Shown: in pieces, positions 685 to 57,016 of the stretch
How the letters are laid out: every line of letters starts with the position of its first letter
Position numbering within the stretch: position 1 is the first letter of the stretch
Assembly: GCA_964016885.1 (NCBI GenBank)
Contig: OZ024742.1
Coordinates: 173,972,001-174,036,000, forward strand
Direction of reading: 5' to 3'
From: Eledone cirrhosa
Taxonomy: Eukaryota
DNA: 64,000 nucleotides
The notes under the pieces: model-generated
What the model was told of the DNA's origin: nothing
The model's input: the letters and a program-made list of their open reading frames with translations, nothing else
Database searches by the model: none
Translations under genes and position numbers: made by a program

Positions 685-733
685 ACACCTTCTGATGAGG
701 GTCTAATTAGGCCCCAAAATAGATTAAATGTGT
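685..733 (+). ncRNA. Degenerate minimal hammerhead ribozyme motif (Penelope-like terminus)
   Basis: ACACCTT-CTGATGA-GGGTCT/AATT/AGGCCC-C-AAAA (GAAA lost)-TAGATTA-AATGTGT. Stems I and II pair. Followed by ~75 nt and then (TA)n. Confidence 0.45.
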
Positions 734-1998: not shown

Positions 1999-3582
<1,584 letters not shown>

Positions 3583-9334: not shown

Positions 9335-9559
9335 ATATATGCAAGCATGGAAGAATTGTCGCTAAACAGAAATGATGATGAATGCTGATGTATATCTTTT
9401 AGGGTTACCACATGATTCATGAACTGAGTGATATGTTTTTTGACAGAATGTCTGAAGATTTTTTTATGGTTCAGGAAATGGCTTTTGAACTCAAACATTC
9501 CTATATAGGTCCAGGCTTCAGTTTAGTTGTTCTGGTTATTTGAGGGCACTTTTACTTCA

Positions 9560-9735
9560 TATATTCCATATTGTATGAATTTGTTTCCTATATCGTTTCT
9601 TAGTGGAATGACTTCACAGATAAAATTTCAATTCAGTCTTATTTAATTTCTTCGTCCAGTTGGTTCTTGCCTCATTCCTTCTTCTTCCTTCAACATTACC
9701 AATATTTGGATGACAGCCAGATCCTACTACTGAGA
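9560..9735 (-). mobile_element. Decayed R4/Dong 5' ORF fragment
   Basis: Reverse complement (..GAAGAAGAAGG..AGAACCAACTGGACGAAGAAATTAAATAAGACTG..TATAGGAAA) resembles 53570-53735. Confidence 0.65.
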
Positions 9736-10560: not shown

Positions 10561-10904
10561 TGGGATGACAAATTATTGTTATAGGTAATCCAGTTAGAGG
10601 TTGTGAGTACTCTGTATTATGGATAGCTTTAACGTAGGGTGTTGTTTGACTCAACAAGAGTTTTCCTTAGTTAGGTGGCAAGTTTACGGGAATTCTTATG
10701 CAGGTTAATCTTGGAGTAATAATAGTGAAAGAGTGAAGAATAACATGGCCAACAGTACAAAAAGGGTTTTATTTACAGTATTAACAATTGTTTCATTGAT
10801 TAGGATGTCTAAAGGTTGCTAATCACTCAAAGTTGTGTCACTCAAGCTTAAATACAGTGTATGCCTAATCAAATCATCGGAATAATTATTCTTCACTCTT
10901 TCAC

Positions 10905-13939: not shown

Positions 13940-16080
13940 ATCACCACCATCATCATCATCATCATCGTTTAACGCCCATCTTCCATGCTTGCATGGGTTT
14001 GGACTGGAGTTTTCCCACTTGAGGCAAGAGTGGTTGTCTTGCTCGCATAGGACTCTCTGGCGGGTTTTCTACGGCTGGATGCCCTTCCTAACAGCAACCA
14101 CATTTACAGTGTGGACTGGGAGGTTTTTACCGTGTTACCTACACGGCCACATTACAGCGTGGACTGTGTGTTTTTTTGTTGTGACACCTACACGACCTCA
14201 TTTGTTTCGGACTGGATGTTGTGGTACCAACATAACTTTACATCGAAAGGGTGGTGTGGATGGGGTGGGGGTAGTGGGACAGGGTGTATTTTTGTTAGAG
14301 GTGCCTACTGACTGTAGTAGGTTTCACTTTGTACTTAGGTAAGGCGGGTCTTCTCTATTACTGTGTAGCGCACAAGATCTCGGTCCAGTGACATTGTCTT
14401 GGAGAGGTGTAAGTGTGTGAGGTCGGAATTTATCAAGTCGTCCCAGCTTTTTCTGGGTCTGCCTACTCCGTGGCTACCGTCTATTTTTATTGCCCTGCAC
14501 TTTGTTATACAGCTGTCGGCTTTCATGTGCATCACGTGACCATACCAACGTAGTCTCCTCTCGAGTAAACAACATCTGATCCCTCTTATTTCTAATTTTT
14601 CCCTTAGTTCGTTTATACTTTGCCGTTCACGTATATTACTATTACACATCCAGCGGAGCATGCAAGCTTCGTTCCTCTCTAGTCTGCGTATATCCTCTGC
14701 ACACAATGCCCAGGTCTCACTGCCATGTAACATTGCTGTTTGTATGCAGGCATCATACAGCCTGCCTTTCATTTTTAGAAAAAACCCTTTAGCGGCTCTC
14801 TGAACTTTTTCCATCCAGTTCTGACTCTAGCTACTGTACTTTCAGAGCACCCTCTACTACTGCTGATTTTGTCATCCAAGTAACGGAAGGTGTCCACTAT
14901 TTCTATAGAACCATCTGTGCAATGGAATTAGCTAGTATTCAGTGGGCACTTGCTGCTACTTATTGCACCAGAGCACCGGCCACATATAAAACTATGTTCT
15001 TAGTTAGATTACCTGTGATCCCACTACATCTTTTATGCACCCATACTTTGCATTTGGGACATAAAATGGAGTTTCTACCTACTGCTTTCCTACACACTAA
15101 GCATGGCCATTTCCCGGATGGAACCAGTGCCCTATTTTCCTTCCTACAAACTGGAACTTTAGTCTTGGACAGGTTAATTTTAAGGCCTTTTGATTCTAGG
15201 CCATGCTTCCATGTTTGGAATTTCTTCTCTAGTTCAGCCATTGATTCAGCTATGAGCGTTAGATCATCTGCGTATAGGAGTTCCCATGGGCAGCCGGTCT
15301 TGAACTCCACTGTTATAGCCTGAAGGGCAATAATAAATAGTAGGGGGCTAAAAACGGAGCCCTGATGAACACCAACTCTTACGCTAAACTCTTCACTATA
15401 TTCGTTGTTAATTCTAACCTTGCTGACTGTTTCTTTATACATCGCTTGTATAGCTCTCACAAGCCATTCATCAACACCTAGTTTTCTAAGAGCCCACCAG
15501 ATAATGGAACGGGGGAACTCTGTCAAAGGCTTTCTCCAAGTCGACAAAACTAAGAATAGGGGTTTACTTTTAGCTAGGTACTTCTCTTGTAGTTGTCGTA
15601 CAATGAAAAGAGCGTCTGTGGTATTTTTACCTGACACAAACCTGAACTGCATTTCATCTAGATCAATTCGCTCTCTGATTAGTTGCGCAATTACTTTTTC
15701 AGTGACCTTCATGACCTGGTCGATTAATTTAGTGCCTCTATAGTTACCCCTATCTAGAGCATCTCCTTTACCCTTGTAGCAGTTAATGATGCTGCTGCTA
15801 TGCCAGTCCTTCGGAACAACCCCATTCTGTATGACTTGGTTTACTATCCGGGTGACCATGGTGTGTCCCACCATTCCAGAAGCTTTCAGCATTTCAGCAA
15901 CTATTTCCGAAGGCCCAGCCGCCTTACCCGTCTTCATATCTTTGATTGCCTTACTTATTATACTACCTTCGACTAACACTGCTGGTCCCTCTATTGGATC
16001 GATGTGGGGGGGGACTGTCTTTCTCCCATTTATTCTCCTCATTTAGTAGCCTTTCGTAGTGACACTTCCAAGCTACCTTC
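13940..16080 (-). mobile_element. RTE LINE, 5'-truncated, frameshifted (PHD-RTE family)
   Basis: ORFs 14960..16042 and 14335..14814: GKAAGPSEI, NYRG, QFRF, GVHQGSVFSPLLF, LYADD, HGSETW, RLRWYGHV, GRPRKSW; (GAT)n tail. Confidence 0.96.
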
Positions 16081-18686: not shown

Positions 18687-19186
18687 CCATTACTGTAAAG
18701 TGGTTTTGTTTCTTACACGACTGCTTTACAATGGGGACTGGGTGTTTTTTGTTTTGTCACCGACACAGTGGACAGAAATGAGAGGATGGATTAGGGTGTG
18801 TGGGGTGTATATTAGGTTAAGAGGTGCCTACTGACAGTAGGTTTGTATGCAAGGGGAGGCAGGTCTTCTGCATAACTGCAGAGCGCCATACACACACACA
18901 CACACATATATATATATATGTGTGTATATAGTTTTGAAAAGAAGCAAACATGGCTAAGTCTTAAGAATATGAATTCAAAATGCGAGTCTGCAGAGGAAAA
19001 AGACAATGGAAAACATGCCTTTGTCCCTACCTGTTTTGTTATGTCCCAATGCTCACTGGAATGAATGGCATCAAACTGGTAAGACCCCACTGCCCCACTC
19101 TCCCCCAGGGCAACTGGCCTGCATCATGGACTGTATGCTCTGTTTTCCATGTCACCTTCACCACTAATATATATATATATAAATAT

Positions 19187-19368
19187 ATAGGAAAAGAGAC
19201 AGGATCCCGATGGCAGAGCACCGGGTATTTCGACCTAGCTGTCAAAACAGCCGTAGCTCAGCTGTTGGGGTCCTGACTCTTTTCATATTACCCATTTACT
19301 ACCCTAAGTATTGAGTACTCTGGTGCATTATGCTCCACCTGGTTCGTTACCACACTTCCTTCATTACA
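19187..19368 (+). mobile_element. Fold-back TA-flanked element, diverged homologue of 21806-21983
   Basis: Imperfect palindrome GAAAAGAGACAGGATCCC...GGGGTCCTGACTCTTTTC, then the shared tail ATTACCCA..AAGTATTGAGTACT.TGGTGC.TTATG.TCCACCTGGTTC.TTACCACA. Confidence 0.7.
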
Positions 19369-19528
19369 TACATATATATATATCATATTATATTATATAA
19401 AGCATAAATTAAAGTTTTAGCGGCAGTAGGGCAGATAACAATCAAATTGTTTGAGGCGGTTAACACATAAAGTGTGACACCTTGAATATATCAACTAGAT
19501 GTATGTAGCCATAGTATATAACCAAAAT

Positions 19529-21775: not shown

Positions 21776-21805
<30 letters not shown>

Positions 21806-21810
<5 letters not shown>

Positions 21811-21983
21811 AACCAGTAAGACCCCGACAGCTGAGCTCAAGCCGTTTCGACGGCTAGCCGTCAAAACGGCTTGAGCTCAGCTGTCGGGGTCTTACTGGTT
21901 CCTATTACCCACTCTACTACCTCAAGTATTGAGTACTTTGGTGCGTTATGGTCCACCTGGTTCCTTACCACATTTCCTTTGTT
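21806..21983 (+). mobile_element. Fold-back element: 100-bp palindrome plus unique tail, TA-flanked
   Basis: 21806-21905 is self-complementary with one mismatch, centred on GACGGCTAGCCGTC; homologue at 19187-19368. Confidence 0.8.
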
Positions 21984-22006
21984 ATATATATATATATATA
22001 TATATA

Positions 22007-22527: not shown

Positions 22528-22544
22528 GTATGTATCTATATTAA

Positions 22545-23032
22545 TAGTGAGACACTAAGCAGGCTTTGTTTACAAAAGGCTAGTGAATTAGAACATTAGG
22601 TAGTAATATGTGTTTATGCGGTATTTGATTAAATAGAATTAGTCTGTCAGTTGGCATTTTTTAAAAACGCTCTGAATGAAAAAAATGATGAGTATTGACA
22701 TACATAGTACCATTACACCAACACACCACCGATTCTTCCTTCCATTCAGTTAGAAGCTATATAACCATAGCAGGTATATATATGAATATCAGTAAGGAGA
22801 CACAAAGCAGGCTTTGTTTAGAAATGGCTAGCGAATTTGAAAGCTAGATAGTAACATGTCTGTTATTCGCGATTTTTTAAAACCCCACAAACCCAGCAAA
22901 TCAAAGCTGTGGGTTTGTGTCCCATGTACATCACTACTCATCCTCTTTTCTATTCAGAAGGTTCTTTAAAATCCCAACTAACAGATTAACTATATTTCCT
23001 CAAATACGGCATAAGCACATGTTACTACCTAA
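22545..23032. repeat. Direct plus inverted repeat cluster of an unclassified family
   Basis: 22548-22612 resembles 22797-22860 (direct). 22596-22705 resembles the reverse complement of 22923-23032. Related sequence at ~4262-4348. Confidence 0.7.
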
Positions 23033-23059
23033 TTATATATATAAATATATATATATATA

Positions 23060-23563
23060 TGGGATAACAAGTTATCGTTTTAGGTAATCAAGTTAGAGGT
23101 TATAAGTACTCTGTACTATGGATAGTTTTAACATATAGTGTTGTTTGACTCAACAAGAGGTTTCCTTAGTTAGGTAGCGAGTTTGTGAGAATTCCCATGC
23201 AGGTTATTCTTGAAGTAAATAGTAGTGAAAGAGTGAAGAATAACATGGCCGGCTGTACAAAAAGGGTTTTATTTACAGTATTAACAATTGTTTCATTGAT
23301 CAGGTGAGTCTAAAGGCTGCTAATCACTCGAAGTTGCATCACTTGACCTTAAATACAGTGTGTGTCTCTGATCAAATAATCAGAATACTGTATTCCTAGC
23401 ATTCCGATGATTTGATCAAAGACACACACTGTATTTAAGGTCGAGTGATGCAACTTCGAGTTATTAGCGGCATTTAGACTCACCTGATCAATGAAACAAT
23501 TGTTAATACTAGAAATGGAACCTTTTTGTACAGCCGACCATGTTATTCTTCAGTCTTTCACTA
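23060..23563. mobile_element. Hammerhead-bearing fold-back element with ~165-bp inverted arms
   Basis: Arms 23223-23389 and ~23398-23563, each with a hammerhead motif (minus 23276-23390; plus 23398-23510). (TA)n on both sides. Confidence 0.78.
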
Positions 23564-23572
23564 TATATATAT

Positions 23573-25820
23573 AGTGTCACTATGAAAGGCTACTAAATGA
23601 GGAGAATAAATGGGAAAAAGACAGTCTCCCCCACATCGACCCAATAGAGGGACCAGCAGTGTTAGTCGAGGGTAGTATAATAAGTAAGGCAATCAAAGAT
23701 ATGAAGACGGGTAAGGCGGCTGGGACTTCGGAAATAGTTGCCGAGATGCTGAAGGCATCTGGTACGGTGGGACACACCGTGGTCACCCGGATAGTTAACC
23801 AAGTCGTACAGAATGGGGTTGTTCCGAAGGACTGGCGTAGCAGCATCATCGTAAACTGTTATAAGGGTAAAGGAGATGCCCTAGATAGGAGTAACTATAG
23901 AGGCATTAAATTAATCGACCAGGTCATGAAGGTCACGGAAAAAGTAATAGCGCAACTAATCAGAGAGAGAATTAATCTAGATGAAATGCAGTTCGGGTTT
24001 GTGTCAGGCAAAAGTACCACAGATGCTCTTTTCATTGTACGACAACTAGAGGAGAAGTACCTAGCTAAAAGTAAACCCCTATACTTAGCTTTTGTAGACT
24101 TGGAGAAAGCCTTCGACAGAGTCCCCCATTCCATTATCTGGTGGGCTCTTAGAAAACTAGGTGTTGACGAATGGCTTGTGAGAGCTATACAAGCCATGTA
24201 TAAAGAAACAGTCAGCAAGGTTAGAATTAACAACGAATATAGTGAAGAGTTTAGCGTAAAAGTTGCCATCCATCAGGGCTCTGTTCTCAGCCCCCTACTA
24301 TTTATTATTGCCCTTCAGGCTATAACAGAGGAGTTCAAGACCGGTTGCCCATGGGAACTCCTATACGCAGATGACCTAACACTCATAGCTGAATCAATGG
24401 CCGAGCTAGAGAAGAAATTACAAACATGGAAGCACGGCCTAGAACCAAAAGGCCTTAAAATTAACCTGGCTAAGACTAAAGTTCTAGTTTGTAAGAAAGA
24501 AAATAAGACGGCGGTCCCTTCCGGGAAGTGGCCATGCTCAGTGTGTAGGAAAGGCGTAGGTAGAAACTCCATTTTGTGTCCCAAATGCAAAGTATGGGTG
24601 CATAAAAGATGTAGTGGGATCACAGGTAAGCTAAATAAGAACATTGATTTTACATGTGGCCGGTGCTCTGGTGCAATAAGTAGCAGCAAGTGCCCACTGA
24701 ATACTAGCTCTTTCAACTGCGCAGAGGGTTCTATAGAAATAGTGGACAGCTTCCGTTACCTGGATGACAAAATCAGCAGTGGGGGAGGGTGCTCTGAAAG
24801 TACAGTAGCTAGTCAGAACTGGATGGAAAAAGTTCAGAGAGCTTATACCACTATTAGCCGCTAAAGGGTTCTCCCTAAAAATGAAAGGCAGGCTGTATAA
24901 TGCCTGCATACGAACAGCAATGTTGCATGGCAGTGAGACCTGGGCATTGTGTGCAGAGGATATACGCAGACTAGAGAGAACGAAGCTTGCATGCTCCGCT
25001 GGATGTGTAATAGTAATATACGTGAACAGCAAAGCATAAGCGAACTAAGGAAAAAATTAGAAATAAGAGGGATCAGATGTTGTTTACTCGAGAGAAGGCT
25101 ACGTTGGTATGGTCACGTGATGCGCATGAAGGACGATAGCTGTATAACAAAGTGCAGGGCAATAAAGATAGACGGTAGCCACGGAATAGGCAGACCCAGA
25201 AAAACCTGGGACGAGCTGATAAATTCCGACCTCACACACTTACACCTCACCAAGACAATGTCACTGGACCGAGACCTTTGGCAGTACTCAGTAATAGAGA
25301 TGACCCGCCTTACCTAAATACAAAGTAAAACCTACTACAGTCAGTAGGCATCTCTAACAAAATACACCCCCGTCCCACCACCCCCACCCCATCCACACCG
25401 CCCCTTTCAATGTAAAGTTATGTTGGTGCCACAACATCCAGGCCGAAACAAATGAGATTGTGTAGTGTCACGTCATAAAAACACACAGTTCACGCTGTAA
25501 TGTGGCCGTGTAGGCAACACGGTAAAAACCTCCCAGCCCCACACTGTAAATGTGGTTGGTGTTAGGAAGGGCATCCAGCAGTAGAAAACCTGCCAGACAG
25601 TCCACGCTGTAATGTGGCCGTGTAGGCAACACGGTAAAAACCTCCCAGCCCCACACTGTAAATGTGGTTGGTGTTAGGAAGGGCATCCAGCTGTAGAAAA
25701 CCCGCCAGATAGTCCTATGCGAGCAAGATAATCACCATTGCTTCAAGTGGGAAAACCCCCGTCCAAACCCATGCAAGCATGGAACATGGACGTTAAACGT
25801 TGATGATGATGAATGATGAT
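23573..25820 (+). mobile_element. RTE LINE, 5'-truncated (PHD-RTE family)
   Basis: ORF 23659..24864 with QFGF, FVDLEKAFDRV, QGSVLSPLLF, LYADD and C4HC3 finger; frameshifted C-terminus to 25317; 3' UTR with a 112-bp internal duplication; (GAT)n tail. Confidence 0.97.
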
Positions 25821-28469: not shown

Positions 28470-29235
28470 TTAACGTCCATCATCCACACTAGCATGGGTA
28501 AGATGGGCCTGTCCCATTTAGAGGTAAGTTGGGTCGGGTGACCATGTGTCAATCATATACGACTGTTTCTGGCTGGTTTTCTATGGCTGGATGCCCTTCC
28601 TAGCCCCAACTACATTCATGGTGTCTTTTACATCACCACTTTACAGAGTGTGCTGGGCACTTTTTGCTGTATCACCACCACAACAACTTTACAGCGTCGG
28701 CTGGTGGGCTTCACTGGATGCATATACTTTGGCCTGTCCTGGAGGGGGTGTATGGGAGGGGGTGGGGCATACTGTATATATGCTTTGGCTCGTGCTTGTG
28801 GTAAGTCGGATCTTCTGTATTACTGCATATCACCAGAGATCTCAGCCTTGTGTCATCATGTTTGAGAGATGTAATTGGGCAAGGTCTACTTTTATCACCT
28901 CATCCCAAATCTTCCTGGGTCTCCCCACTCCAAGGCTTCCATCGACTTTGAGCTCTCTGCTGTTCTTTATGCAGCTGTCATCCTTCATACGCCTCACATG
29001 TCGATACCAACACAATCTTCACTCCTGCATACAGCATTCGATACCTCGTATGCCTAGTTTCTCTCTCAGTTCATTTATCCTTCACTGTTTTCATATACTA
29101 CTATTACATATCCATTGGAGCATGCAAGTTTCAATTCTTTCCAATCTATGCAAGTCTTCTGTACACAGCACCCTCATCTCACTACCATATAACATACTTA
29201 TTTGTATGCATGCATCATACAGTCTGCCTTTCATT
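28436..29235 (-). mobile_element. Older RTE LINE 3' fragment
   Basis: Decayed homologue of 14335-14780 ([20 protein letters not shown]) with 3' UTR and (GAT)n tail. Confidence 0.85.
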
Positions 29236-29265
29236 AGTTTAATGCGTGAAATAATAGGAAGAGAG

Positions 29266-29301
29266 TCTTAACGTTTCAGACACTAGTCCTTCATCTGAAG
29301 A
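29266..29301 (-). ncRNA. Degenerate minimal hammerhead motif (Penelope-like)
   Basis: Minus strand: TCTT-CAGATGA-A-GGAC/TAGT/GTCT-GAAA-CG-TT-AAGA. Palindromic ACGT stem III; core U4 changed to A. Confidence 0.5.
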
Positions 29302-29596
29302 TAGAATCAGAAATAAAAGATAAGATTGAAAGATAGAGAGTAAGAGGAGGAAGGAAAGCAAAACAAATTTAAAGAAATCACACATGCATATTCAATCAGC
29401 CATATATACAGGGGCCAGCTATTGAAGAATCAACATCATATGTCCAGCCTACCCTCTGTATCAGGAAAAGAAAATGTTTCTCAAAGAAATTATTGGATTT
29501 TTCCAAACTTAAAAGGTCTGTTATGAACTTTCATTCCTTTATAGGTTTCGCTGTCTGAAGAATTCATGCTATCATAATGAATAGTCTTCAGGGAAA

Positions 29597-32209: not shown

Positions 32210-32778
32210 GTGATTGGTATTATGATGTATAGATTATTTAACATTATGATGTATACATAATTTGGTATTATGACATGTAGATTGTTTAATATTAGGACAT
32301 GGAGATTGTTTAGTATTATGACATGTAGATGATTCAGTGTTATGACATGTAGATTATTCAGTATTATGACATATAGATTATTTGGTATTATGACATGGAG
32401 ATTATTTAGTATTATGACATGTAGATTGTTTGATATTATGAGATGGAGATTGGTGTTATGATGTAGATTAAACAATTATGACATAGAGATTATTTAGTAT
32501 TATGACATGTAGATTGTTTGATATTTTGAGTTGGAGGTTGGTGTTATGATGTAGATTAAACAATTATGACATAGAGATTATTTAGTATTATGACATGTAG
32601 ATTGTTTGATATTATGAGTTGGAGGTTGGTGTTATGACGTAGATTAAACAATTATGACATGGAGATTATTTAGTATTATGACATGTAGATTGTGTGGTAT
32701 TATAACATGTAACTTGGTGTTATGATGTAGATTATTTGGTAGTATGACATGTAGATTGTTTGGTATTATGACTTGTAG
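32210..32778. repeat. 24-bp minisatellite with an 88-bp higher-order unit
   Basis: Unit approximately AGATTATTTAGTATTATGACATGT; ATTATTTAGT recurs at 32401, 32489, 32577 and 32665. Confidence 0.92.
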
Positions 32779-33719
32779 AGCAGAATCCCCCAAGCAAAAA
32801 TAAGTACAAGCATTTTGTTGAAAAATATAAGAAAATGAAAATCTACATAAAAAAAGAAAATGAAAAACACATTTATGACATGTGGCTATAAAAGAAAGAG
32901 GAGACATCGTATTCAGAAAAATTAATGGAAGGTCACGAGAGGAAAATACAATCACCTACATTAAGGAACTTTTTCCACTCAATTCAGGAAATGTCCCTTC
33001 TCTCTGGTTCCTGGATGAGGAACTCAGGTCAAGAGAGACCCATCCTGTACACAAAATTCTGGCAAGTGAATTGTTTGTTACTGACAGAATTGGTGAAAGA
33101 AAAACGTTTATTCTTTTTATTTTTTATCTCATAATATTTAGGAAAATGTGTGTAAGTGCATCATAGTAGTTGTTTTTTGCAGGAACATTGAATATATTCA
33201 AGTTAATGTCAATGTCATAGGACATTACTTTTTTTTATGTTGAATGCCTATGTCATGCTGACTAATTAAATTTGTTTTCTTTATTGTTGTTGTTTTTTCC
33301 TATTTTGTTGCATTCAATTTACTTTCTCGGTAGGCAATTTTCTTTCTCAGTTGTGTGTCTGGCTGGTAGCCATATTAATTTGAATGTAAACACAATAAGA
33401 TGAAGTTCAAAATGTCCTAATATGACATATTTTGTTTCTCCCATGGTACAGGAGGGATGTCTAGAGAATTCCAGAATGATGTTTGGAAGAAAATATCTGA
33501 AAAGAATTCTTTCTTCAGTTATACTTGGTAAAAAATATAAATTCTGTGATTCAAGAGGACACAAATTTGTCTATAACAAAAACATCATCAATAACAACTT
33601 CAACAACAACAATAATGAGAGCAACAGCAGAAAGAGTAACAACAATAACAGAACAATATATATATATAACTGAAATATAAGGTGCAGAGAATCTGGAATC
33701 TGAAGTTAGAAGAGTAGAT

Positions 33720-37821: not shown

Positions 37822-37845
37822 AATAATAATAATATTAATAATAAT

Positions 37846-40403
37846 ACTTTCTTTATTAACCACAAGGGTTTACATAAAGTAGACATTAAGGACAGTACAG
37901 GACAATACAGGACGGTACAAAAGGGCATTTCTGCGTGTAAAAAAAAAATAAAATCACAGGATGTAATAATAGAACAATGAAAAAATTCCCCCTATGGGGG
38001 GGAGATTCCGAGGGACATTTGTGGAGAAAGCCCATTAAAAAGCCACAGTGACCCTAACCACCAGGGCAAGTGCCCTCTCCCAGTTTTCCACCTTTAATTT
38101 ACAGACACATACTCAGAGTAGGCCCATTCACTTGGGCCAATCTTGCTTCTCTCACACATCTTTCAACAAAAGGCTGGGAAGAGAGCACTTCCCTCTCTAC
38201 CCTAATTTTCCTTTACAAATGAAATTTGAAAAAGTTAATCAGGGCATCATTGAAGAGGTAAGTGCTCGTCTTCAGCCCTTTCAAATGTGTCCACCATACT
38301 ATCTCTTTCGCCATGGCCACTAGACAGATAAACATTGCCTGCCCTTCCCGGCTAAAGGAAGAGGGCGGGGCAATCCTTACAATGGACTCAGCTGATAGCT
38401 GGATCCGTCCCACACGCGACAGCAGGTGTTCGACATAAACCTACAAGTCAGCAATGCTCGGACACTGGACAAGTGCGTGCAGGACGGTTTCGTCACCCTG
38501 CGCGCATCTCTTACATGCCCGGCTAACGGCACCTCCATGCCTGTAGAGTTTATACCGAACTGGCAAAGCTCCTCGGTAGCACTGCCAGGCCTGTGATTTC
38601 TGGAAGTTGTCCATAGGCACCAGCCCGAAAATTCTTCCGAAGAGATTGGCTAATTGATTTTCGTCGACGCCTATACTTTCCCCAAGTACTTCGTTGATCT
38701 TCCCTTCCACTAATCCTCTATAGAACGCCAAGGTGGAGTTTCCACCAATCACAGTGCCTGATTGGTCCAGGGCTGTGAGCGCCTGAAGACATTCCAGTCT
38801 CAAAGCGTCCCTCTCGGTCTTCGCTTGACCCAGGACTGCAGCTCCGTCAAGGAGACGAGCTGGGGAAAGACGCGTCTAGCAAACGGTGACCACACCTGAT
38901 CACCGTCGAGGAAGATGTGGAGATGTCGTAGCCTGAGCGCGTGTCTGCGCATCATCAGCCAAGGCAGGCCCAGCCCTCCACGAAGCGGGTGTTGACAGCA
39001 GATGGACCGCATGACAATCGGAGCGCGTCCCTTCTACAAAAAGCAAAAGAGAAAACGCTCCAGCGCAGTCAGGCGAGGCTTAGGACAAGGTACGACGGTG
39101 AGGCGGTAGTAGATGACGGACGCGATATACGTGTTAGCCACCTCCGCTCGACCTGTCAGGGATAGCTTCCTCTCCGCCCATTTCTGGGTGAGAGAAGCCA
39201 CCCTGCTCGTCACCTCGTCCCAGTCTTTGTCCGTCTGGAGATCCGGACCGAACCAGACACCGAGCAATTTAACTGGTCCGTCCGTCCAGCGCCTGACGAC
39301 GTTGTTGGACGGCATGGTCCTGCCTCTCCAGGTGCCGAGCTGCAGGCTCACTGACTTTTCCTGGTTGAGCATTGTTGCTGTCACCGCTTCGTATTCTCTT
39401 AGTGTAGTGCCGATCGCCTCGATGTGTTTGGCGTTCGACACCACTACGGTGACATCGTCCGCATATGCTGACACGGATCTTCCGCATCCTAGTTCGTGCA
39501 GGATCCCCCTCAACGTGTCCAGTTTGTGCAGTAATGGCTCGAGAGTCAATACGTACAGAGGGACGAGAGGGGACAACCTTGGCGGACTGATCGCATGATG
39601 TTGAACAGTTCCGAAAGCTGACCGTTCACTCTCACCACAGAGCCGATGTCCCTTTGCATGGCAGCGATCCAGCCTCTGAATATGGGCCCAAAGCCGGCCG
39701 CCCTCATGAGTGCCGCCAGATAACGATGGTCGACCCTATCGAAAGCTCTCGACTGATCTAAATTGATCAAGGACCCACCCGTGCCAGGTTCCCTAGCTAC
39801 CCGATCCATGATATACCGCATGAGGTGGAGGTTGTCGTGGATGGATCTGTTAGGAATGGCACATGTCTGCGCCTCTCCTACCAGACCACCAACGACAAGC
39901 ACCAACCTCTTTGCTAGCACCTAGGCCAAAATCTTGAACTCTGTATATAGAAGAGTTAAGGGCCTGAAATTATCTATGTTATTCTCCTTTTTCGAATTCT
40001 TTTTCAGTAGCGCCACCGCTCCTCGGCTCACAGAGCTGGGAATTCTCCCGTTCTGTTGCCAGTTGCAGTAGACATCCGCCAAGAGGCCTCCGTACAAGTC
40101 TGACATCTGTACGTAAAGTTCATAGGGAAGACCATCCTCACCCGGCGATTTACCCCTTGTGCAGCCAGTCATTGCCTCCCATACTTCAGCTGCTGTCATC
40201 GGCTTTTTACAATACTCCGCCTCAGTGGCAGAGATCCGCAGCAGTACGTCGAGGTAGACACTAAAGTCCATCCCTCGATCCGGCCTGCCGCTGTCCCCGA
40301 ACAGCTGAGCGGAGTGTCGCTGAAAAGCTTCACACATTTGCCCGGGATCGAGTAGCATGTGCCCGTCCTGGTCCACTAGAGAGCGGATCGTGGCTTTGTT
40401 GCC
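37846..40403 (-). mobile_element. Tx1-like LINE 3' part (disrupted ORF2 and 3' UTR)
   Basis: KSPGEDG, NFRPLTLL, DQSRAFDRV, VRQGCPLS, AYADD, CKRC..ETVLHALVQC; homologous to 56773-59318. Confidence 0.95.
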
Positions 40404-40553
40404 GCTTTTTGGAACACTTCAAACGGCTTGCTTGCTGGGAACAGCAAGAACCCTCCGATACATCCTGGATGTCTGAGACTGCAGGTAGTGGGTTGATATT
40501 CATTTCAACAAACTTTCCAGTTAAATAACATCAATGACTGAGACTCAAAGTAC

Positions 40554-40585
<32 letters not shown>

Positions 40586-40598
40586 CAATAATAATAAT
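40404..40598 (+). mobile_element. R4/Dong 3' end fragment plus (AAT)n
   Basis: Matches 56607-56754, then (AAT)n at 40554-40598. Confidence 0.9.
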
Positions 40599-40611
40599 CG
40601 TTAAAAGTTAA

Positions 40612-43429
40612 AAGATAAAAGAAACAACAGCTAAGGAAAACAAGGCGAGGAACCATCACCAATGCAACAATATCCTCAAAGCAACCGCAAATTTGGTGAA
40701 AAATTACTTGGTATAAAAAGAAGATGAAACAACAAACAAGAAAGATCAGAACATTGGTGGAAGAAACGACTGAATGGTCAAATCAGGGAAATGAGAAAAG
40801 ACATTGGAAAGCTTGAGTTATACTGAATGCGACATTACAAAACATAGACACAAAAGATAGATTGAAAATAAAATACTAAACTAGGGGAAAAGAGCTAAAT
40901 GTTATCATAGAGGAACTGAAGCAACGCATTTTAGCAAAAAGTGCAAAGATTAGGCAGTATGAGAACAGAGCTAGTCAGTATAGACAGAACCACATGTTTG
41001 AGAACAACCAGAAGATGTTGTTTGAACAGCTTGAAGGGAAAGAAAAAGGTAATGAGTTGATCCCTGAGGTTGAACAGACTAAGACATTCTGGACAGGAAT
41101 ATGGGAGCAGGATGTTAAACATAATAGTCAGGCAGTGTGGATTGAGGCAGGTCAAAAGGAGTTAGTGAACAAGCACACCAACAACCTGATTTGAGTATCA
41201 CAGTTGAAACTCTTAGAGAGCAGGCCAAAAAACTAACCAACTGGAAATCACCAGGCCCAGATGGTGTGCAAGGATATTGGATAAAAAATATAACATCCCT
41301 CCACCCAAAACTGACAGCCATGTTCAATGACTGCTTGATGTCATGTAAAGTACCAGAGTGGTTGACAAAAGGTACCACAGTTCTAGTGATGAAAGGCCGA
41401 ATCAAGGGTAATAACGTTACCAACTATAGACCTATCACATGTATGTCCGTAATGTGGAAACTGTTAACAAGCATTGCGTCTGAGGAAATATACTATCACC
41501 TCCAAATAAACAACTTATTACTGGACGAACAGAAAGGATGCCGAAAGAAGTCCCATGATACAAAGGACCAGTTACTTATTGATAAGATGGTAATGAGGAA
41601 TTGCAAAAGGAGGCATACTAGTCTTACCATCAGATGGATAGATTACAAAAGGGCATTCGTCATGGTACCTCATTCTTGGATAACCAAAAGCCTAGAGATC
41701 TTCAAGGTTGCAGACAATATAAGACAGCTATTAAGTAAAAGTATGAAGTCCTGGTAAACAGAGCTAACATCAGGTGGAGAATCCTTGGGAGGCGTGAAGA
41801 TCAAGCGAGATATCTTCCAGGGAGATAGTTTGTCCCCTTTGTTGTTTGTCCCTACCTTGATACCCCTGTCTGTCATATTACAAAAAGTGAGAGGAGGATA
41901 CAAACTGGGAAGAGCAGAGCTTACCATCAACCACCTCCTCTTTATGGATGATCTTAAACTTTTTGGGAAGAGTGTGAAGGAGTTGAATCTACTTGTTGAC
42001 ACTGTCCGTATTTTCGGCAATGATATTTGTATGGAGTTTGGCGTTAATAAGTGTGCAGTCCTAGTGATGAAGAGGGGTAAATTGAGCAGAAGCAATGGAA
42101 TCCAGGTATCAGCAGGTGAGATGGTAAAGGAAATTGACACTGAAGAGGGATACAAATATTTAGGTGTTCTGTAGGCACATGACATCAAGAACAAAAAATG
42201 AAGGCATTGATAAGATCTGAATACCTAAGGAAAGTAAGGAACATACTAAAATCACATCTAAATAGTAGGAATGTCATAAGTGCAGTAAATTCCCAAGCTG
42301 TGTCTATTATTAGGTACAGTGTGGGAATTCTGAAATGGAATGTTGCTGAACAAAAAGAAATCGATAGGAAGACTAGGAAGCTAATGACTATCTACAACAT
42401 GTTCCACAAGAGGAGTGATGTTGATAGACTCTACTTAAAGAGATCTGAAGGTGGAAGAGGTCTTATCAGCATAGAGGGCAGTGTTCAGATGGAGAAAAAC
42501 AGCCTGCACAAATATGTGGCTGACAGTAGGGAGACAATGCTTAAAGTTGTAGTGAAGGAGAAGACAATAGACCAGGGGATATCCAAGGAAGAAATAACAA
42601 CAAGGAGGAAGAGCAACCTTCATGAAAAACCCCTTCATAGCACCTTCTTTAAGAAAACGAAATTCAGAGATCCACAGGTATGGAACTGGTTAAAAAGATT
42701 AGACCTTAAAAAAAGCTACAGAAGGAAGGCCAATGGCTGCGCAAGAGCAAGCCTTCAGATGAAGTGGCTGAAACACCATATTGACAAGGAGGAGGCTAGC
42801 TCAATGTGTAGGATCTGTAGAGAGAGAGAGGAGACTGTGGCTCACATTGTATCCGAGTATAAACACCTAGCCCAGACTCAATATAAAGGCTGGAGACATG
42901 ATATGGTAGGCAAGGTGATCCACTGGCATCTATGCAAACTAAACAATTTACCACATTCTGAGAAGTGGTATGAGCATAAGCTAGAGTCGGTGATAGATAA
43001 CAATGAGGTGAAGGTGTTATGGTATTTGAGGATACAGACGGACAAGAAATTAGAACACAATAGGCCTGACCTGGTGGTTTTTGACAAGGAAAAAAGATTG
43101 TGCCTGATTGTAGATGTAGCCTGCCCATTTGACACGAGAGTACAAGAAAAGGAGAGGGAGAAAATTAACCGATACCAGGATTTAAAGAAGTGGGAGTTAA
43201 ATGGCATGAGATTAAGGTCGTCCTGATTGTCATAGGCACACTAGGTACTATCTCAAAGAGTTTCCAAGGATGGTTAAAGAAGATTAGTCCAGCCCAGTTT
43301 TTTGGAACACTTCAAAAGGCATGCTTGCAGGGACAGCAAGAACCCTCTGTTATGTCCTGAATGTCTGAGGCTTTCCAGTTAAATAACATCAATGACTGAG
43401 ACTCAAAGAACAATAATAGTAATAATAAT
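40612..43429 (+). mobile_element. R4/Dong-like RLE LINE, 5'-truncated and decayed
   Basis: KSPGPDG, NYRPITC, EQKGC, IFQGDSLSPLLF, LFMDD, YKYLG, GGRGL, CRIC..ETVAHIVSE, RHD, RPDLVV..DVACP..KEREKINRYQDL; ends in AAT repeats. Confidence 0.95.
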
Positions 43430-46200: not shown

Positions 46201-47628
<1,428 letters not shown>

Positions 47629-47652
47629 TATATATATATATATTAATTTAAA

Positions 47653-47781
47653 ATATTAACAAAATAGATATTCTTGTGATCAATTATATTTTATTATACA
47701 TATTTCAGAGGTACTGAGTTAATAAAATATAATTGCATAATAAAATATAATTGATCACAAGAATATCTATTTTGTTAATAT
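47653..47781. repeat. 45-bp perfect inverted repeat in a TA-flanked segment
   Basis: 47653-47697 is the reverse complement of 47737-47781. Confidence 0.9.
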
Positions 47782-47886
47782 CTTAATTTAATATTACTAA
47801 CTCTGGAAAACCTCTTAACTGTTGAGTGCTTCCAATCTATTGTAAAACTCATTCTTTGATGTATTCATTGAACCTTGTTTAACTTT

Positions 47887-48163
<277 letters not shown>

Positions 48164-53360: not shown

Positions 53361-56300
53361 GTTTATTTATGTTCGTCTACAGCGTGATAATGCCACACAA
53401 AAATCACCGGGAGTGACGAAATCACCGGTGGTTATGTAACCATACATTCGCCAATCCTCGATAAGAGTGTTTAAATGTCGAACCTAAACAGTTTGAATAA
53501 CGGTGAAGTGGAGACTAGAATGTCATGTGACAGACTCTCACCTGATAGGTTCTCCCTGGCTCAGCAGCAGGGAACTGGCTGTCAACCAAATACTGCTGGT
53601 GTCGGAAGAAGAAGAAGAAGGAAAGGGACCAGAACCAACTGGACGAAAGAATTGAATAGAACTGCTATGCAATGTTACCTGAAGAGTAACCCCAAGGAGA
53701 AAGGCTATAGGAAAAGGATGCATAACATCTGGAACGAGATTGGTCTATTTAACTTAGATGAACAAAAATTGGCCGGGCAGGCTCGGGTAATAAGAACTAA
53801 TGGGTGGATAAGTGAGCTGGAACTGGAGGAACTGAGCAGAGAGATTAGCTTGGAAATGGAGAGTGGAGTATGCCAGGCAAACGAGCCAGTGGGAAATGAA
53901 GGTGAAGAGGTCGAGAGAACGGAGGAACCATCCGAAGCAGACAATGATCTGAATGCTGAAATAAATAATACCTGGAATAGAGATACGGCCACTGAGGAGA
54001 TGCATGCTGACGGGCTAGGACAAGATTTGGTTGATATCCTAAACTTAGTGGTAGATGAATTGAACAATGATAGTGGGAAACATATGAACCTAAGATTTGT
54101 AGACAGGAAACAGTTAAAAGAAACAACGGCTAAGGTAAACAAAGTCATCCCATACCTTGAGGCGAGGAGCCTTCACCAATGGAACAATATCCTCAAAGCA
54201 ACAGAAAATACGGTGAGGAAACTACTTGGTATGAAAGCGAGAGGAAACAGCAAACAAGAAAGACAGCGCCTTGGTGGAAGAAACGACTGAGTGGTCAAAT
54301 CAGGGAAATGAGAAATGACATTGGAAATCTTGAGTCCCTACTGAATGGGACACTAAAAAACATAGACACTAAAAATAGACTGGAAATAAAGTACAAAACT
54401 AGGAGGAAAAAGCTAAATATTATCATAGAGGAACTGAAGCAACGCATTGTAGCAAAGAGTGCAACAATCAGGCGATACGAGAGCAGAGTCAGACAGTATA
54501 GACAGAACCGCCTGTTTGACAACAACCAGAAGATGGTGTTTGGACAGCTTGAAGGGAGAGAAAGAGGCAATGACTTGATCCATGAGGCGGAACAAACTAA
54601 AACATTCTGGAGAGGAATATGGGAGCAGAATGTTGAACATAATGACCAGGCAGTGTGGATTGAAACAGTACAGAAGGAGATTAGTGAACAGGCACACCAA
54701 CAAACTGATTTGAGTATCACAGTTGAAACTCTTAAGTGGCAGGCCAAAAAACTAACCAACTGGAGATCACCAGACCCAGATGGTGTGCAGGGGTATTGGA
54801 TTAAAAATATAACATCCCTCCACCCAAAACTGACAACCATGTTCAATGACTGCTTGATGTCAGGTGAGGTACAAGAGTGGTTGACAAAAGGTACCACAGT
54901 TCTGATAATGAAAGACCGAATCAAGGGTAATGGTGTTACCAACTATAGACCAATCACATGTCTGTCCGTAATGTGGAAACTGTTGACAAGCATTATGTCT
55001 GAAGAAATCTACCATCACCTCCACACAAACAACTTGTTACCGGACGAACAGAAAGGATGCCGAAAGAAGTCCCGTGGTACAAAGGACCAGTTACTTATTG
55101 ATAAGATGGTAATGAGGAATTGCAAAAGGAGACACACTGGTCTTGCCATGGGATGGATATACTACAAAAAGGCATTTGACATGGTGCCTCATTCTTGGAT
55201 CACCAAAAGCCTGGAGATCTTCAGGGTGGCAGATAACATCAGACAGTTGTTGGGCAAAAGTATGAAGTCCTGGGAAACAGAGTTAACATCAGCTGGAGAA
55301 TCCTTGGGAAGCGTGAAGACCAAGAGAGGTATCTTCCAGGGAGATAGTCTGTCCCCTCTGTTGTTTGTCCTTGCCCTGATGCTCCTGACCAGTATACTGC
55401 AAAAAGTGAGAGCAGGATACAGGTTGGGAAAGGGAGGGCTTACCATCAATAACCTCCCCTTCATGGACGATCTTAAGCTCTTCGGGAAGAGTGAGAAGGA
55501 GTTGGATGTGCTTGTTGACACTGTCCGTATTTTGACCAATGATATATGTATGCAATTTGGTATTAGTAAGTGTGAAGTCCTTGTGGTGAAGAGGGGTAAA
55601 TTGAGCAGAAGTAACGGAATCCAGGTACCAACAGGTGAGATGATAAAGGGAATTGACACTGAAGAAGGATACAAGTATTTGGGTGTTCTGGAGGCTGATG
55701 ACATCAAGAACAAAAAAATGAAGGAATTGTTAAGAACTGAATACATTCGGAGAGTAAGGAGCGTATTGAAGTCACATCTGAACAGCAGAAATGCCATAAG
55801 CGTAGTAAATTCCCGAGCTGTGTCTATTATTAGGTACAGTGCGGGAATTCTGAAATGGAATGTTGCTGAACAAAAAGAAATGGATAGGGAGACTAGGAAG
55901 CTATTGACTATCTACAACATGTTCCACAAGAGGAGTGATGTCGATACACTCTACTTAAGGAAATCTGAAGGTGGAAGAGGTCTTATCAGCATAGAGGACT
56001 GTGTTCAGATGGAGAAAAACAACCTACACAAATACGTTACTGATAGTAAGGAGCCAATACTCAGAACTGTACTGAAGGAGAGGACAATAGACCAGGGGAT
56101 GTCCAAGGAGGAAATAACAACAAGGAGTAAGAGCAGCCTTCAGGAAAAATTCCTTCATAGTACCTTCTTTGAGAAAACTGAATTCAGAGATCCACAGACA
56201 TGGAACTGGTTGAAAAGAGGAGACCTTAGAAAGGTTACAGAAGGAATGTTAATGGCTGCGCAAGAGCAGGCCCTCAAAACGATGTGGTTGAAACACCATA

Positions 56301-56772
56301 TTTACAAGGAGGAGGCTAGCCCACTGTGCAGGATCTGTGGAGAGAGAGAAGAGACTGTGGCTCACATTGTATCTGGTGGTTGTGACCAAAGAAAAAAGAT
56401 CGTTCCTGAGTGTGGATGTGGCCTTCCCATTCGACACGAGAGTGCAAGATAAGGAGAGGGATAAAATTAACCGACACCAGGACTTAAAGTGGGAGGAAAA
56501 AAGGATTTGGAACTGCCATGAAGTCAAAGTGGTCCCGATTGTCATAGGCGCACTAGATACTATCTCAAAAGGTTTCCTAGGATGGTTAAAGAAAATTGGC
56601 CCTTCACGCTTTTTGGAACGCTTCAAAAGGCATGCTTGCTGGGAACAGCAAGAACCCTCCGATACGTCCTGAATATCTGAGGCTGCAGGTAGTGGCTTGA
56701 TATTCATTTCAACAAACTTTCCAGTTAACTAACATCAATGACTGAGACTCAAAGAATAATAATAATAATAAT
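53361..56772 (+). mobile_element. Near full-length R4/Dong-like RLE LINE (inactive)
   Basis: Single ORF split by a frameshift (53475..54290 and 54179..56452); RT motifs GIFQGDSLSPLLF and FMDD; CRIC finger; ~218-bp deletion at 56373 relative to 42853-43070; ends with (AAT)6. 5' boundary uncertain. Confidence 0.95.
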
Positions 56773-57016
56773 GCTTTCTTTATTAACCACAAGGGTTTAC
56801 ATAAAGTAGACATTAAGGACAGTACAGGACAATACAGGACGGTACAAATGGGCATTTTTGCGTGTAAAGAAACAGAGGATGTAATAAAAATAACAATGAA
56901 AAATTTACCAATAGGAGGGAGACTTCCGAGGGACATTTGTGGAGAAAGCCCATTAAAGGGGCACAGTGAACCTGACCACCAGTGCAAGTGCCCTCTCCCA
57001 GTTTTCCACCTTTAAT

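What the first reader, a model, noticed from the sequence alone, without database searches (positions are those of the whole stretch)
23060..23563. TA-flanked fold-back element with two back-to-back variant hammerhead ribozymes
Seen: ~165-bp inverted arms, each reading stem I - core - stem II - GAAA - CAATTG - UU - stem I. Plus arm: AGCATT-CCGATGA-TTTGATCA..~66 nt..TGATCAAT-GAAA-CAATTG-TT-AATACT. Minus arm: CAGTATT-CTGATTA..GAAA-CAATTG-TT-AATACTG, followed by AATAAA. Unusual traits: U4C core, U-U at the stem II base, a long stem II insert, and a palindromic ACAATTGT stem III. Both 3' ends face (TA)n and the arms are unequal in length. Known: PLE pseudo-LTRs and retrozymes carry hammerheads, minimal ones with palindromic stem III can act as dimers, and PLE insertions often have inverted termini. 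Inference: a non-autonomous, microsatellite-targeted PLE/retrozyme system shared by several families here (0.7, 2.2, 10.8, 19.2, 21.8, 29.3, 47.7 kb). No PLE ORF is in the window.
Basis: partly seen in the sequence, partly recalled or inferred. Interest (0 to 1): 0.78.

Follow-up and report, generated by a model that had tools for sequence, protein, structure and literature searches.

The report
Back-to-back ribozyme ends of Penelope retrotransposon
The fold-back is two inverted terminal pieces of a protein-coding, (TA)n-inserting Penelope-like retrotransposon; each carries an enlarged, likely self-cleaving hammerhead motif, and a third of the sampled copies stop about 31 bases below a TATA box, likely marking where the element's RNA begins.

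Summary
The motif and arms are real. They are not a retrozyme or a non-autonomous family: other copies run upstream into an RT + GIY-YIG ORF with the Hydra-clade PLE signatures (DKT, RWK, CxCX5C, CxxC/CxH). The long arm's extra 165 nt is the element's 5' UTR, the known PLE 'tail'. U-U at the stem II base, cleavage after U and a palindromic stem III are normal for published Hydra hammerheads. Two traits are unusual: a 66-nt loop II and a U4C core fixed in subfamilies A, B and D; the others keep CUGANGA with N7 varying. The minus-arm CTGATTA is decay. New population evidence: 30 of 66 at-risk copies end within 13 nt at the 5' strand of stem I, 31-32 nt below a TATA box (P 5e-29). Only 5 of 88 end at the predicted cleavage site (P 0.011). 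37 of 42 inverted pairs combine one short-ended and one tail-ended arm. Best model: twin priming on both strands of (TA)n, with run-off at the transcription start. Cleavage and the start site are untested; no RNA data were available.

The parts
23035..23060 (.). (TA)n target microsatellite, left
23061..23224 (-). 165-nt 'tail' = start of the element's 5' UTR, read through from the pLTR end; second priming site at 23061
   Evidence: the same sequence lies 53 nt above the ORF ATG in L054
23225..23390 (-). pLTR arm 1 (subfamily B type): predicted start site/stem I, hammerhead, AATAAA, short 3' end
23283..23294 (-). GAAA core, palindromic stem III ACAATTGT, U17; predicted cut between 23283 and 23282
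   Evidence: Hydra hammerhead table
23377..23383 (-). core CTGATTA; G8U is a departure from the family core, likely inactive
23301..23358 (+). loop II insert; on the strand opposite to the ribozyme it reads CAG|GTGAGT...TTAAATACAG| (55-nt GT-AG intron-like, unverified)
23391..23395 (.). junction filler TATTC, a repeat of the arm start forming GAATAC-T-GTATTC
23396..23561 (+). pLTR arm 2: stem I 23396-403/23505-512, core CCGATGA (U4C) 23404-410, stem II 23412-419/23484-491, GAAACAATTGTT 23493-504, short 3' end 23561
23562..23573 (.). (TA)n target microsatellite, right
10562..10904 (-). second copy of the family (subfamily D): tailed arm starting at stem I plus a 21-nt inverted short end; compensatory stem II TTGATT/AATCAA

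Best explanation
The element is a head-to-head pair of terminal-repeat (pLTR) fragments of a protein-coding Hydra-clade Penelope-like retrotransposon inserted in (TA)n, likely made when the element's enzyme primed two cDNAs on the two strands of the microsatellite and both ran off the RNA's 5' end. Shown: family, ORF, clade motifs, two 3' ends, the 5'-end hotspot and the TATA spacing. Inferred: a TATA box in the 3' UTR of an upstream tandem unit starts transcription at the A of CCAGT, the first base of hammerhead stem I. The GIY-YIG domain would nick both TA strands, and the RT would start at two internal sites (pLTR end and tail end), as shown in vitro for an anole PLE. cDNAs that reach the RNA start give 167-nt and 330-nt arms, which join back to back. 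The hammerhead is a genuine inherited motif, predicted to cleave slowly and only as a dimer or with protein help. Most inserted cDNAs came from RNA not cut at that site.
For: ORF upstream of the motif with RT and GIY-YIG, 576 aa open in L049. Hydra motifs DKT, RWK, CNCHLPDKC, CRLC, CRH; 139 homologs. 5' ends in 92 copies sampled by a tail pattern: 30 of 66 at risk in -110..-98, expected 1.8, P 5e-29; seen in subfamilies A, B, C and D. TATAAATA or TATATATA sits 31-32 nt above the A of CCAGT in most upstream-intact A and B rows. Two other families also cluster about 29-33 nt below a TATA-like box; in one of them the cluster lies inside loop II, not at stem I. 37 of 42 inverted pairs are short+tail and none is tail+tail; about a dozen have non-overlapping arms like twin priming, e.g. 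L064 2-169 and 166-330. Across 7 subfamily majority rows, core/stem III/U17/stem-II-base change at 0 of 19 columns apart from U4 and N7, against 35 of 64 in loop II and 16 of 53 in the tail (Fisher P 0.006 for all ribozyme columns). 5 pairs change on both sides, 1/500 shuffles. A sister Hydra family has the same GAAACAATTGTT with a canonical core, 7574 matches vs 3 control. In vitro two-site initiation, cutting of both strands and a protein-assisted HHR: PMC11167929.
Against: No RNA data, so the start site, cleavage and any poly(A) use are unobserved. Sister family E has the same 5'-end cluster at stem I (26 of 92 in -44..-29) but no TATA box 31 nt above it. The window arms differ at a 2-nt subfamily marker (GT vs AG) and are 91.5% identical, where most pairs agree; a single RNA does not explain that without later mutation or conversion. 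The hammerhead fold costs 4-6 kcal/mol over the ensemble and stem III is barely formed as a monomer. U4C considerably decreases activity in vitro (PMC3088659). Covariation rests on few events among related sequences. Ends were machine-called and can shift a few nt through microhomology; at least one (L095) was miscalled.
Confidence: 0.7

Rival explanations
1. The 5'-end hotspot is structural: RT stalls, or the nascent cDNA folds back and self-primes on leaving stem I, making the inverted arm (self-priming model proposed for rotifer PLEs).
For: The hotspot coincides with stem I in this family and in families E and G. Junction palindromes exist, e.g. GAATAC-T-GTATTC in the window. Arms usually share private variants. 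Self-priming was hypothesised in PMC3846280.
Against: In family F the cluster lies in loop II, below a TATA-like box and away from stem I. Half of the hotspot copies (15 of 30) have no inverted partner. Arms often start at different offsets or do not overlap at all.
Confidence: 0.15
2. A non-autonomous 330-nt retrozyme/SINE-like master, starting at stem I, was amplified by a PLE in trans.
For: Many copies are short units beginning at stem I; a solo pLTR under a host promoter could act as a secondary source.
Against: Each subfamily has both short copies and copies continuing into the 3' UTR/ORF with the same diagnostic bases. No tandem arrays of the unit were seen among the fetched loci. The ends do not sit at the cleavage site, as they would for retrozyme monomers.
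Confidence: 0.08
3. The hammerhead in the U4C subfamilies is a dead relic, and the region is kept only for promoter or protein-binding reasons.
For: U4C is fixed in A, B and D (81 of 100 listed copies). Loop II is 66 nt long. Only 5 of 88 ends fall at the cut site. HHR mutants do not impair insertion in vitro.
Against: All other core positions stay fixed through A, B and D, and stem II shows a compensatory change in D. There is a small excess of ends at -3..+3 (P 0.011). U4C viroid variants remain infectious.
Confidence: 0.3
4. A TIR DNA transposon (MITE).
For: Long inverted arms in TA.
Against: The arms are unequal, junctions vary from copy to copy, single arms are common, and the sequence is the 3' UTR of an RT gene.
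Confidence: 0.01

Closest known systems
Hydra-clade Penelope-like elements (Craig et al. 2021, PMC8557442; incl. Hydra-1_Obim)
   Same: C-terminal GIY-YIG, DKT, RWK, CxCX5C linker, CxxC/CxH, (TA)n insertion, 3'-terminal type I hammerhead with ctgaNga-t...t-gaa, 3-4 bp stem III, cleavage often after U, inverted 5'-truncated copy.
   Different: Not Hydra-1_Obim: its listed hammerhead and protein differ, compared by eye. Loop II is 66 nt against 3-10 nt in the listed Hydra rows. CCGAUGA occurs in no row of that table. The tail is 165 nt against the 30-40 bp described. The unit is roughly 3.3-3.5 kb (estimate), with a 520-750 nt 3' UTR above the ribozyme.
Minimal/dimeric PLE hammerheads (Cervera and de la Pena 2014, PMC4209133)
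   Same: Located in pLTRs, long helix II, palindromic helix III, dual motifs 100-700 bp apart on opposite strands already noted, low activity.
   Different: U.U rather than G10.1-C11.1 at the stem II base; large structured loop II; U4C.
Poseidon from Anolis (Frangieh et al. 2024, PMC11167929)
   Same: Two internal RT start sites bounding the tail, both strands cut in AT-rich DNA, uncleaved RNA as the main template.
   Different: Different clade. There the hammerhead overlaps the ORF start; here it ends about 280 nt above the ATG. They found no RNA reads ending at the cut site, whereas here 5 of 88 genomic ends fall there.
Adineta vaga EN+ Penelope pLTRs (PMC3846280) and D. virilis Penelope promoter (PMC2377424)
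   Same: Putative TATA + Inr in the pLTR, inverted pLTRs with junction palindromes; promoter in the pLTR followed by a short intron.
   Different: The passages read give no population map of 5' ends against the TATA box. PMC3846280 favours self-priming; the data here favour two primed cDNAs.
Non-LTR retrozymes of metazoans (PMC7229834; search listing and abstract start only)
   Same: Type I hammerhead in a short repeated unit.
   Different: Here the unit is part of an RT-coding element, is dispersed and inverted, and does not begin at the cleavage site.

Membership tests
Penelope-like element (EN+) | single ORF with RT and GIY-YIG endonuclease | tested here: met
   L049 576-aa frame with FDI, MGSSDS, RDD, VYLC...IIGS; L054 gives the N-terminus. 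Pfam copy gave no family for it; many homologs carry PF26215.
Penelope-like element (EN+) | pLTR partial tandems, inverted 5'-truncated copy, optional tail | tested here: met
   42 head-to-head pairs; tail = 5' UTR
Hydra clade | DKT instead of DKG, RWK motif | tested here: met
   EDKTL and IRWKA in L054
Hydra clade | CxCX5C linker, C-terminal EN with CxxC and CxH | tested here: met
   CNCHLPDKC 436, CRLC 534, CRH 562 (definition)
Hydra clade | (TA)n insertion preference | tested here: met
   3' ends abut (TA)n in most rows
Hydra clade | phylogenetic placement with reference Hydra RTs | not tested
   reference proteins were only read in the supplement; no tree with them was built
Type I hammerhead ribozyme | core CUGANGA + GAAA + NUH | tested here: inconclusive
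   met in subfamilies C, C2, O1, O2; U4C in A, B, D and the plus arm; G8U in the minus arm
Type I hammerhead ribozyme | helices I, II, III with covariation | tested here: met
   93.9% paired, 5 pairs with two-sided change, 1/500 shuffles; helix III never changes to another pair type, so it is uninformative
Type I hammerhead ribozyme | match to Rfam hammerhead models | tested here: not met
   no hit at E<=5; the 66-nt loop is the likely reason (inference)
Type I hammerhead ribozyme | site-specific self-cleavage | not testable with these tools
   indirect only: 5 of 88 ends at -3..+3, expected 1.3, P 0.011; family E shows no clear cluster there
Retrozyme | non-coding unit bounded by cleavage sites, tandem arrays, circular RNA | tested here: not met
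   linked to an ORF; ends cluster about 107 nt above the cut site; circles not testable
TIR DNA transposon | fixed, equal terminal inverted repeats around an internal region | tested here: not met
   variable junctions, unequal arms, solo arms

The most novel reading that the evidence does not exclude
Penelope-like elements replicate through an LTR-like strong-stop step. RT primes in the upstream pLTR, runs to the capped RNA start (the first base of the hammerhead) and must jump to the downstream pLTR to copy the ORF; the thousands of back-to-back ribozyme pairs would be failed jumps. In these families loop II has been expanded into a control module: it holds the TATA box and start site in family F, and possibly a 55-nt opposite-strand intron in this family. 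That module would decide which of the two ribozyme copies in a transcript can cut.
Probability: 0.25. Interest if true: 0.75.

Novelty: new variant of a known kind. Interest (0 to 1): 0.46.

Why it matters
How PLEs form their inverted ends and what their hammerheads do are stated open questions (PMC8557442, PMC11167929, PMC3846280). This genome holds thousands of copies from several families, so insertion junctions act as a record of RT start and stop sites. They point to run-off at a TATA-defined RNA start and to twin priming rather than fold-back, and they give a weak in-genome sign of cleavage. The family also offers a natural series for bench work: a canonical core and a U4C core on the same 66-nt loop, a loop-less natural copy (L177), and a compact sister ribozyme with the same stem III. 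The window element itself is a decayed, ordinary insertion.

Tried and rejected
Rfam scan: no ribozyme hit, only microsatellite noise. MFE folding of single arms was uninformative. My strict hammerhead scanner missed both window arms and found only the 10.8 kb copy plus one unrelated hit. The Pfam copy gave no family for the ORF. RNA evidence: no RNA holder listed; runs X1, X2 and X4 are contigs of unknown type, and the joints listed showed no skip matching either candidate intron (tables were cut), which is no evidence either way. Sense-strand intron in subfamily A (AG|GTAAAC...CCTTTAG|, 56 nt): the donor is absent from B, C and D, and no copy with that junction was among 3 short-loop copies; rejected as unsupported. 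Opposite-strand 55-nt intron: 1 of 3 short-loop loci matches it exactly (L177, both arms), but the other two are microhomology deletions and subfamily D lacks the donor; kept as a weak lead. CpG decay as the source of canonical cores: it explains the scattered TG copies in A/B (11 TG and 7 CA of about 104, within the range of other CpGs) but not whole subfamilies C and O. The first family-E end mapping used references containing inverted junctions and was redone. The DNA search for the 21.8 kb family returned nothing because common words are skipped; incidental copies were used instead. The bacterial promoter scan is irrelevant here. The tree of 127 pLTR rows was mostly unresolved and unrooted, so the direction U4 to C4 is not shown. 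Earlier findings: none. Literature: 'hammerhead'+'U4C' gave 1 paper; 'Penelope-like'+'hammerhead'+'Octopus' gave only PMC8557442; searches listed no paper I read that maps PLE 5' ends to a TATA box. Subscription papers and Repbase were not searchable.

Full report
Observation. The two arms and all quoted motifs are present at the stated places. The long arm (23061-23390, minus) and the short arm (23396-23561, plus) meet head to head across a 5-nt filler, and both 3' ends touch (TA)n. The window lies in a 3.0-Gb assembly. It is probably an octopod cephalopod, an inference from recalled repeat types and from Argonauta proteins among the best named homologs.

Family and identity. The arm has 1585 first-look candidates (40 scored), and a 29-nt tail pattern has 949 exact matches. 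In other copies the sequence continues upstream through a 520-750 nt UTR into the end of an ORF. A search with its last 90 residues scored 150 places at 81-100% identity. [quoted passage not shown] DKT, RWK, CxCX5C, CxxC and CxH are the features by which Craig et al. define the Hydra clade (section read). All ORF copies seen are broken or partial; the youngest subfamilies are about 3.3% from their majority row. In L054 the last part of the 165-nt extension of the long arm lies 53 nt above the ATG, so the extension is 5' UTR read through from a tandem unit, the PLE 'tail'.

The ribozyme. CCGAUGA is the master state of subfamilies A, B and D: 81 of the first 100 listed of 343 matches (hand count). 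Subfamilies C, C2, O1 and O2 have CUGANGA with N = U, C, G or A on the same long loop. Across seven majority rows, core, stem III, U17 and the U.U pair change at 0 of 19 columns, loop II at 35 of 64 and the tail at 16 of 53. On 23 chosen copies, 5 of 16 pairs change on both sides (1/500 shuffles; slid controls 0-2); relatedness can inflate this. Stem II has pairing probabilities of 0.83-0.99 over most of its pairs in the A and B copies and the plus arm, but not in the minus arm or L050. The full hammerhead fold lies 4-6 kcal/mol above the ensemble in all eight RNAs folded, including the compact sister. A sister Hydra family (E) carries the same GAAACAATTGTT with a compact canonical core: 7574 matches against 3 in the control. 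Perreault et al. note that a U10.1-U11.1 mismatch occurs naturally and that U4C lowers activity but allows viroid infectivity (passages). I put activity of the C4 version at about 55%, slow and assisted; the minus arm (G8U) is probably dead.

Where copies end. I took the first 100 of the 949 tail matches on contig C1, dropped 8 that were near-identical duplicated blocks, and mapped the 5' ends of the remaining 92 against two natural references. 30 of 66 copies that reach that far end between -110 and -98 relative to the predicted cut (expected 1.8 from the rate inside the ribozyme; P 5e-29). 5 of 88 end at -3..+3 (expected 1.3; P 0.011, one of the windows tested). The hotspot centres on CCAG-TATT, and a TATA box starts 31-32 nt above its A in most upstream-intact A and B rows. 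Of the 30, 15 join an inverted partner, 9 join TA and 6 join other sequence. For family E, 92 ends from 90 regions taken from the first 100 of 4543 matches gave 26 in -44..-29, again the 5' strand of stem I, but without a TATA box at -31. For the 21.8 kb family (F), about 17 of 37 incidental rows end at -44..-36, inside loop II and 29-31 nt below a TATA-like box. For the 2.2 kb family (G), 12 of 29 end at -45..-36, about 29-33 nt below TATAAATA (overlapping loci may repeat a copy). F separates the hotspot from stem I, which favours a transcription start over a structural stall; E counts against the universality of a TATA box.

How inverted pairs are built. Of 42 head-to-head pairs among all fetched loci, 37 pair a short-ended with a tail-ended arm, 5 are short+short and none is tail+tail. 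About a dozen have non-overlapping arms that meet near or beyond the pLTR end. This fits the in vitro finding that a PLE protein cuts both strands and starts RT at two sites bounding the tail (parts 1-2 of 4 of PMC11167929 read). Arms usually share private bases, pointing to one RNA or one source locus; the window pair is an exception at one 2-nt marker. Copies that continue above the start site (36 of 66) need a read-through tandem transcript, a circle or a strand jump; these were not distinguished.

Comparison and novelty. PLE hammerheads, dimer-type stem III, opposite-strand pairs, TA targeting, tails and putative TATA/Inr in pLTRs are in print. What I read: PMC4209133 parts 1-2 of 4; PMC8557442 passages, section 11 and supplement parts 1, 2 and 52 plus one search; PMC3846280 and PMC2377424 passages. 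An Octopus repeat annotation has no occurrence of 'hammerhead' or 'Hydra' in its main text. Not found in what I read: this family, a 66-nt loop II with a U4C core in a PLE, a promoter inside loop II, or a 5'-end map of this kind. Repbase and unsearched supplements may hold the family.

Verdict. A real feature, correctly seen, of a known class. It is a new variant whose value lies in the copy-population evidence on PLE mechanism. Interest 0.46.

Noticed in passing
window 21786-22005 and 19167-19388; L006, L090, L002: Family F: same short+tail inverted design. Its hammerhead has a U3-A8 core (TTGAGAA/TTGACAA), a ~45-nt loop II holding a TATA-like box and the 5'-end cluster, and stem III ACGGCT/AGCCGT with a palindromic loop; the 5' ribozyme copy of a transcript would lack its core.
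   Followed up: partly
L180-L299 (e.g. L202:1492-1560): Family E: Hydra-clade element with a compact hammerhead CCGAG-CTGA(A/G/T)GA-T-CC..GG-T-GAAACAATTGTT-CTCGG, at least 7574 copies, many back to back, 65-nt tail.
   Followed up: yes
window 2146-2345 (-): Family G hammerhead with a 4-bp stem III and 8-nt loop, TATAAATA about 30 nt above; C3 is mutated in the window copy.
   Followed up: partly
window 29233-29305 (-): Hammerhead family with CTGATGA-A-GGAC..GTCC-GAAAC-GT-T (2-bp stem III), decayed core in the window copy.
   Followed up: partly
window 47640-47890: Inverted short+tail pair of a family whose fuller copies (L059, L184) show CTGATGA with a ~40-nt stem-loop II; the window arms are cut below the core.
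   Followed up: partly
window 689-730 (+): Single CTGATGA-GGGTCT-AATT-AGGCCC-CAAA hammerhead-like relic; no relative among the fetched loci.
   Followed up: partly
L177:1491-1570 and its inverted partner: Both arms lack exactly the 55 nt that read as a GT-AG intron on the opposite strand; only this locus matched the junction pattern genome-wide.
   Followed up: partly
window 9394-9612 (-): Decayed GIY-YIG fragment of another Hydra-like family, best E 2.9e-7.
   Followed up: partly
window 23573-25603 (+), 14050-16066 (-), 46349-47634: 5'-truncated LINE copies about 92% alike; the one next to the finding has an open RT frame from 23602 (RTE-like by recall) and starts right after the (TA)n.
   Followed up: no
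window 37825-42853 and 54109-59318: Multi-kb repeats 86-90% alike with rearranged blocks, GC-rich and strand-skewed; unidentified.
   Followed up: no
window 22529-23033: TA-flanked element next to the finding with 66-nt inverted arms and an 83-nt internal direct repeat.
   Followed up: no
window 32217-32779: Minisatellite with 24-nt and 88-nt periods.
   Followed up: no
many loci, e.g. L002:2790-2950, L016, L023, L065: Different TA-targeting families are stacked in the same microsatellites, one inserted in the TA flank of another.
   Followed up: no
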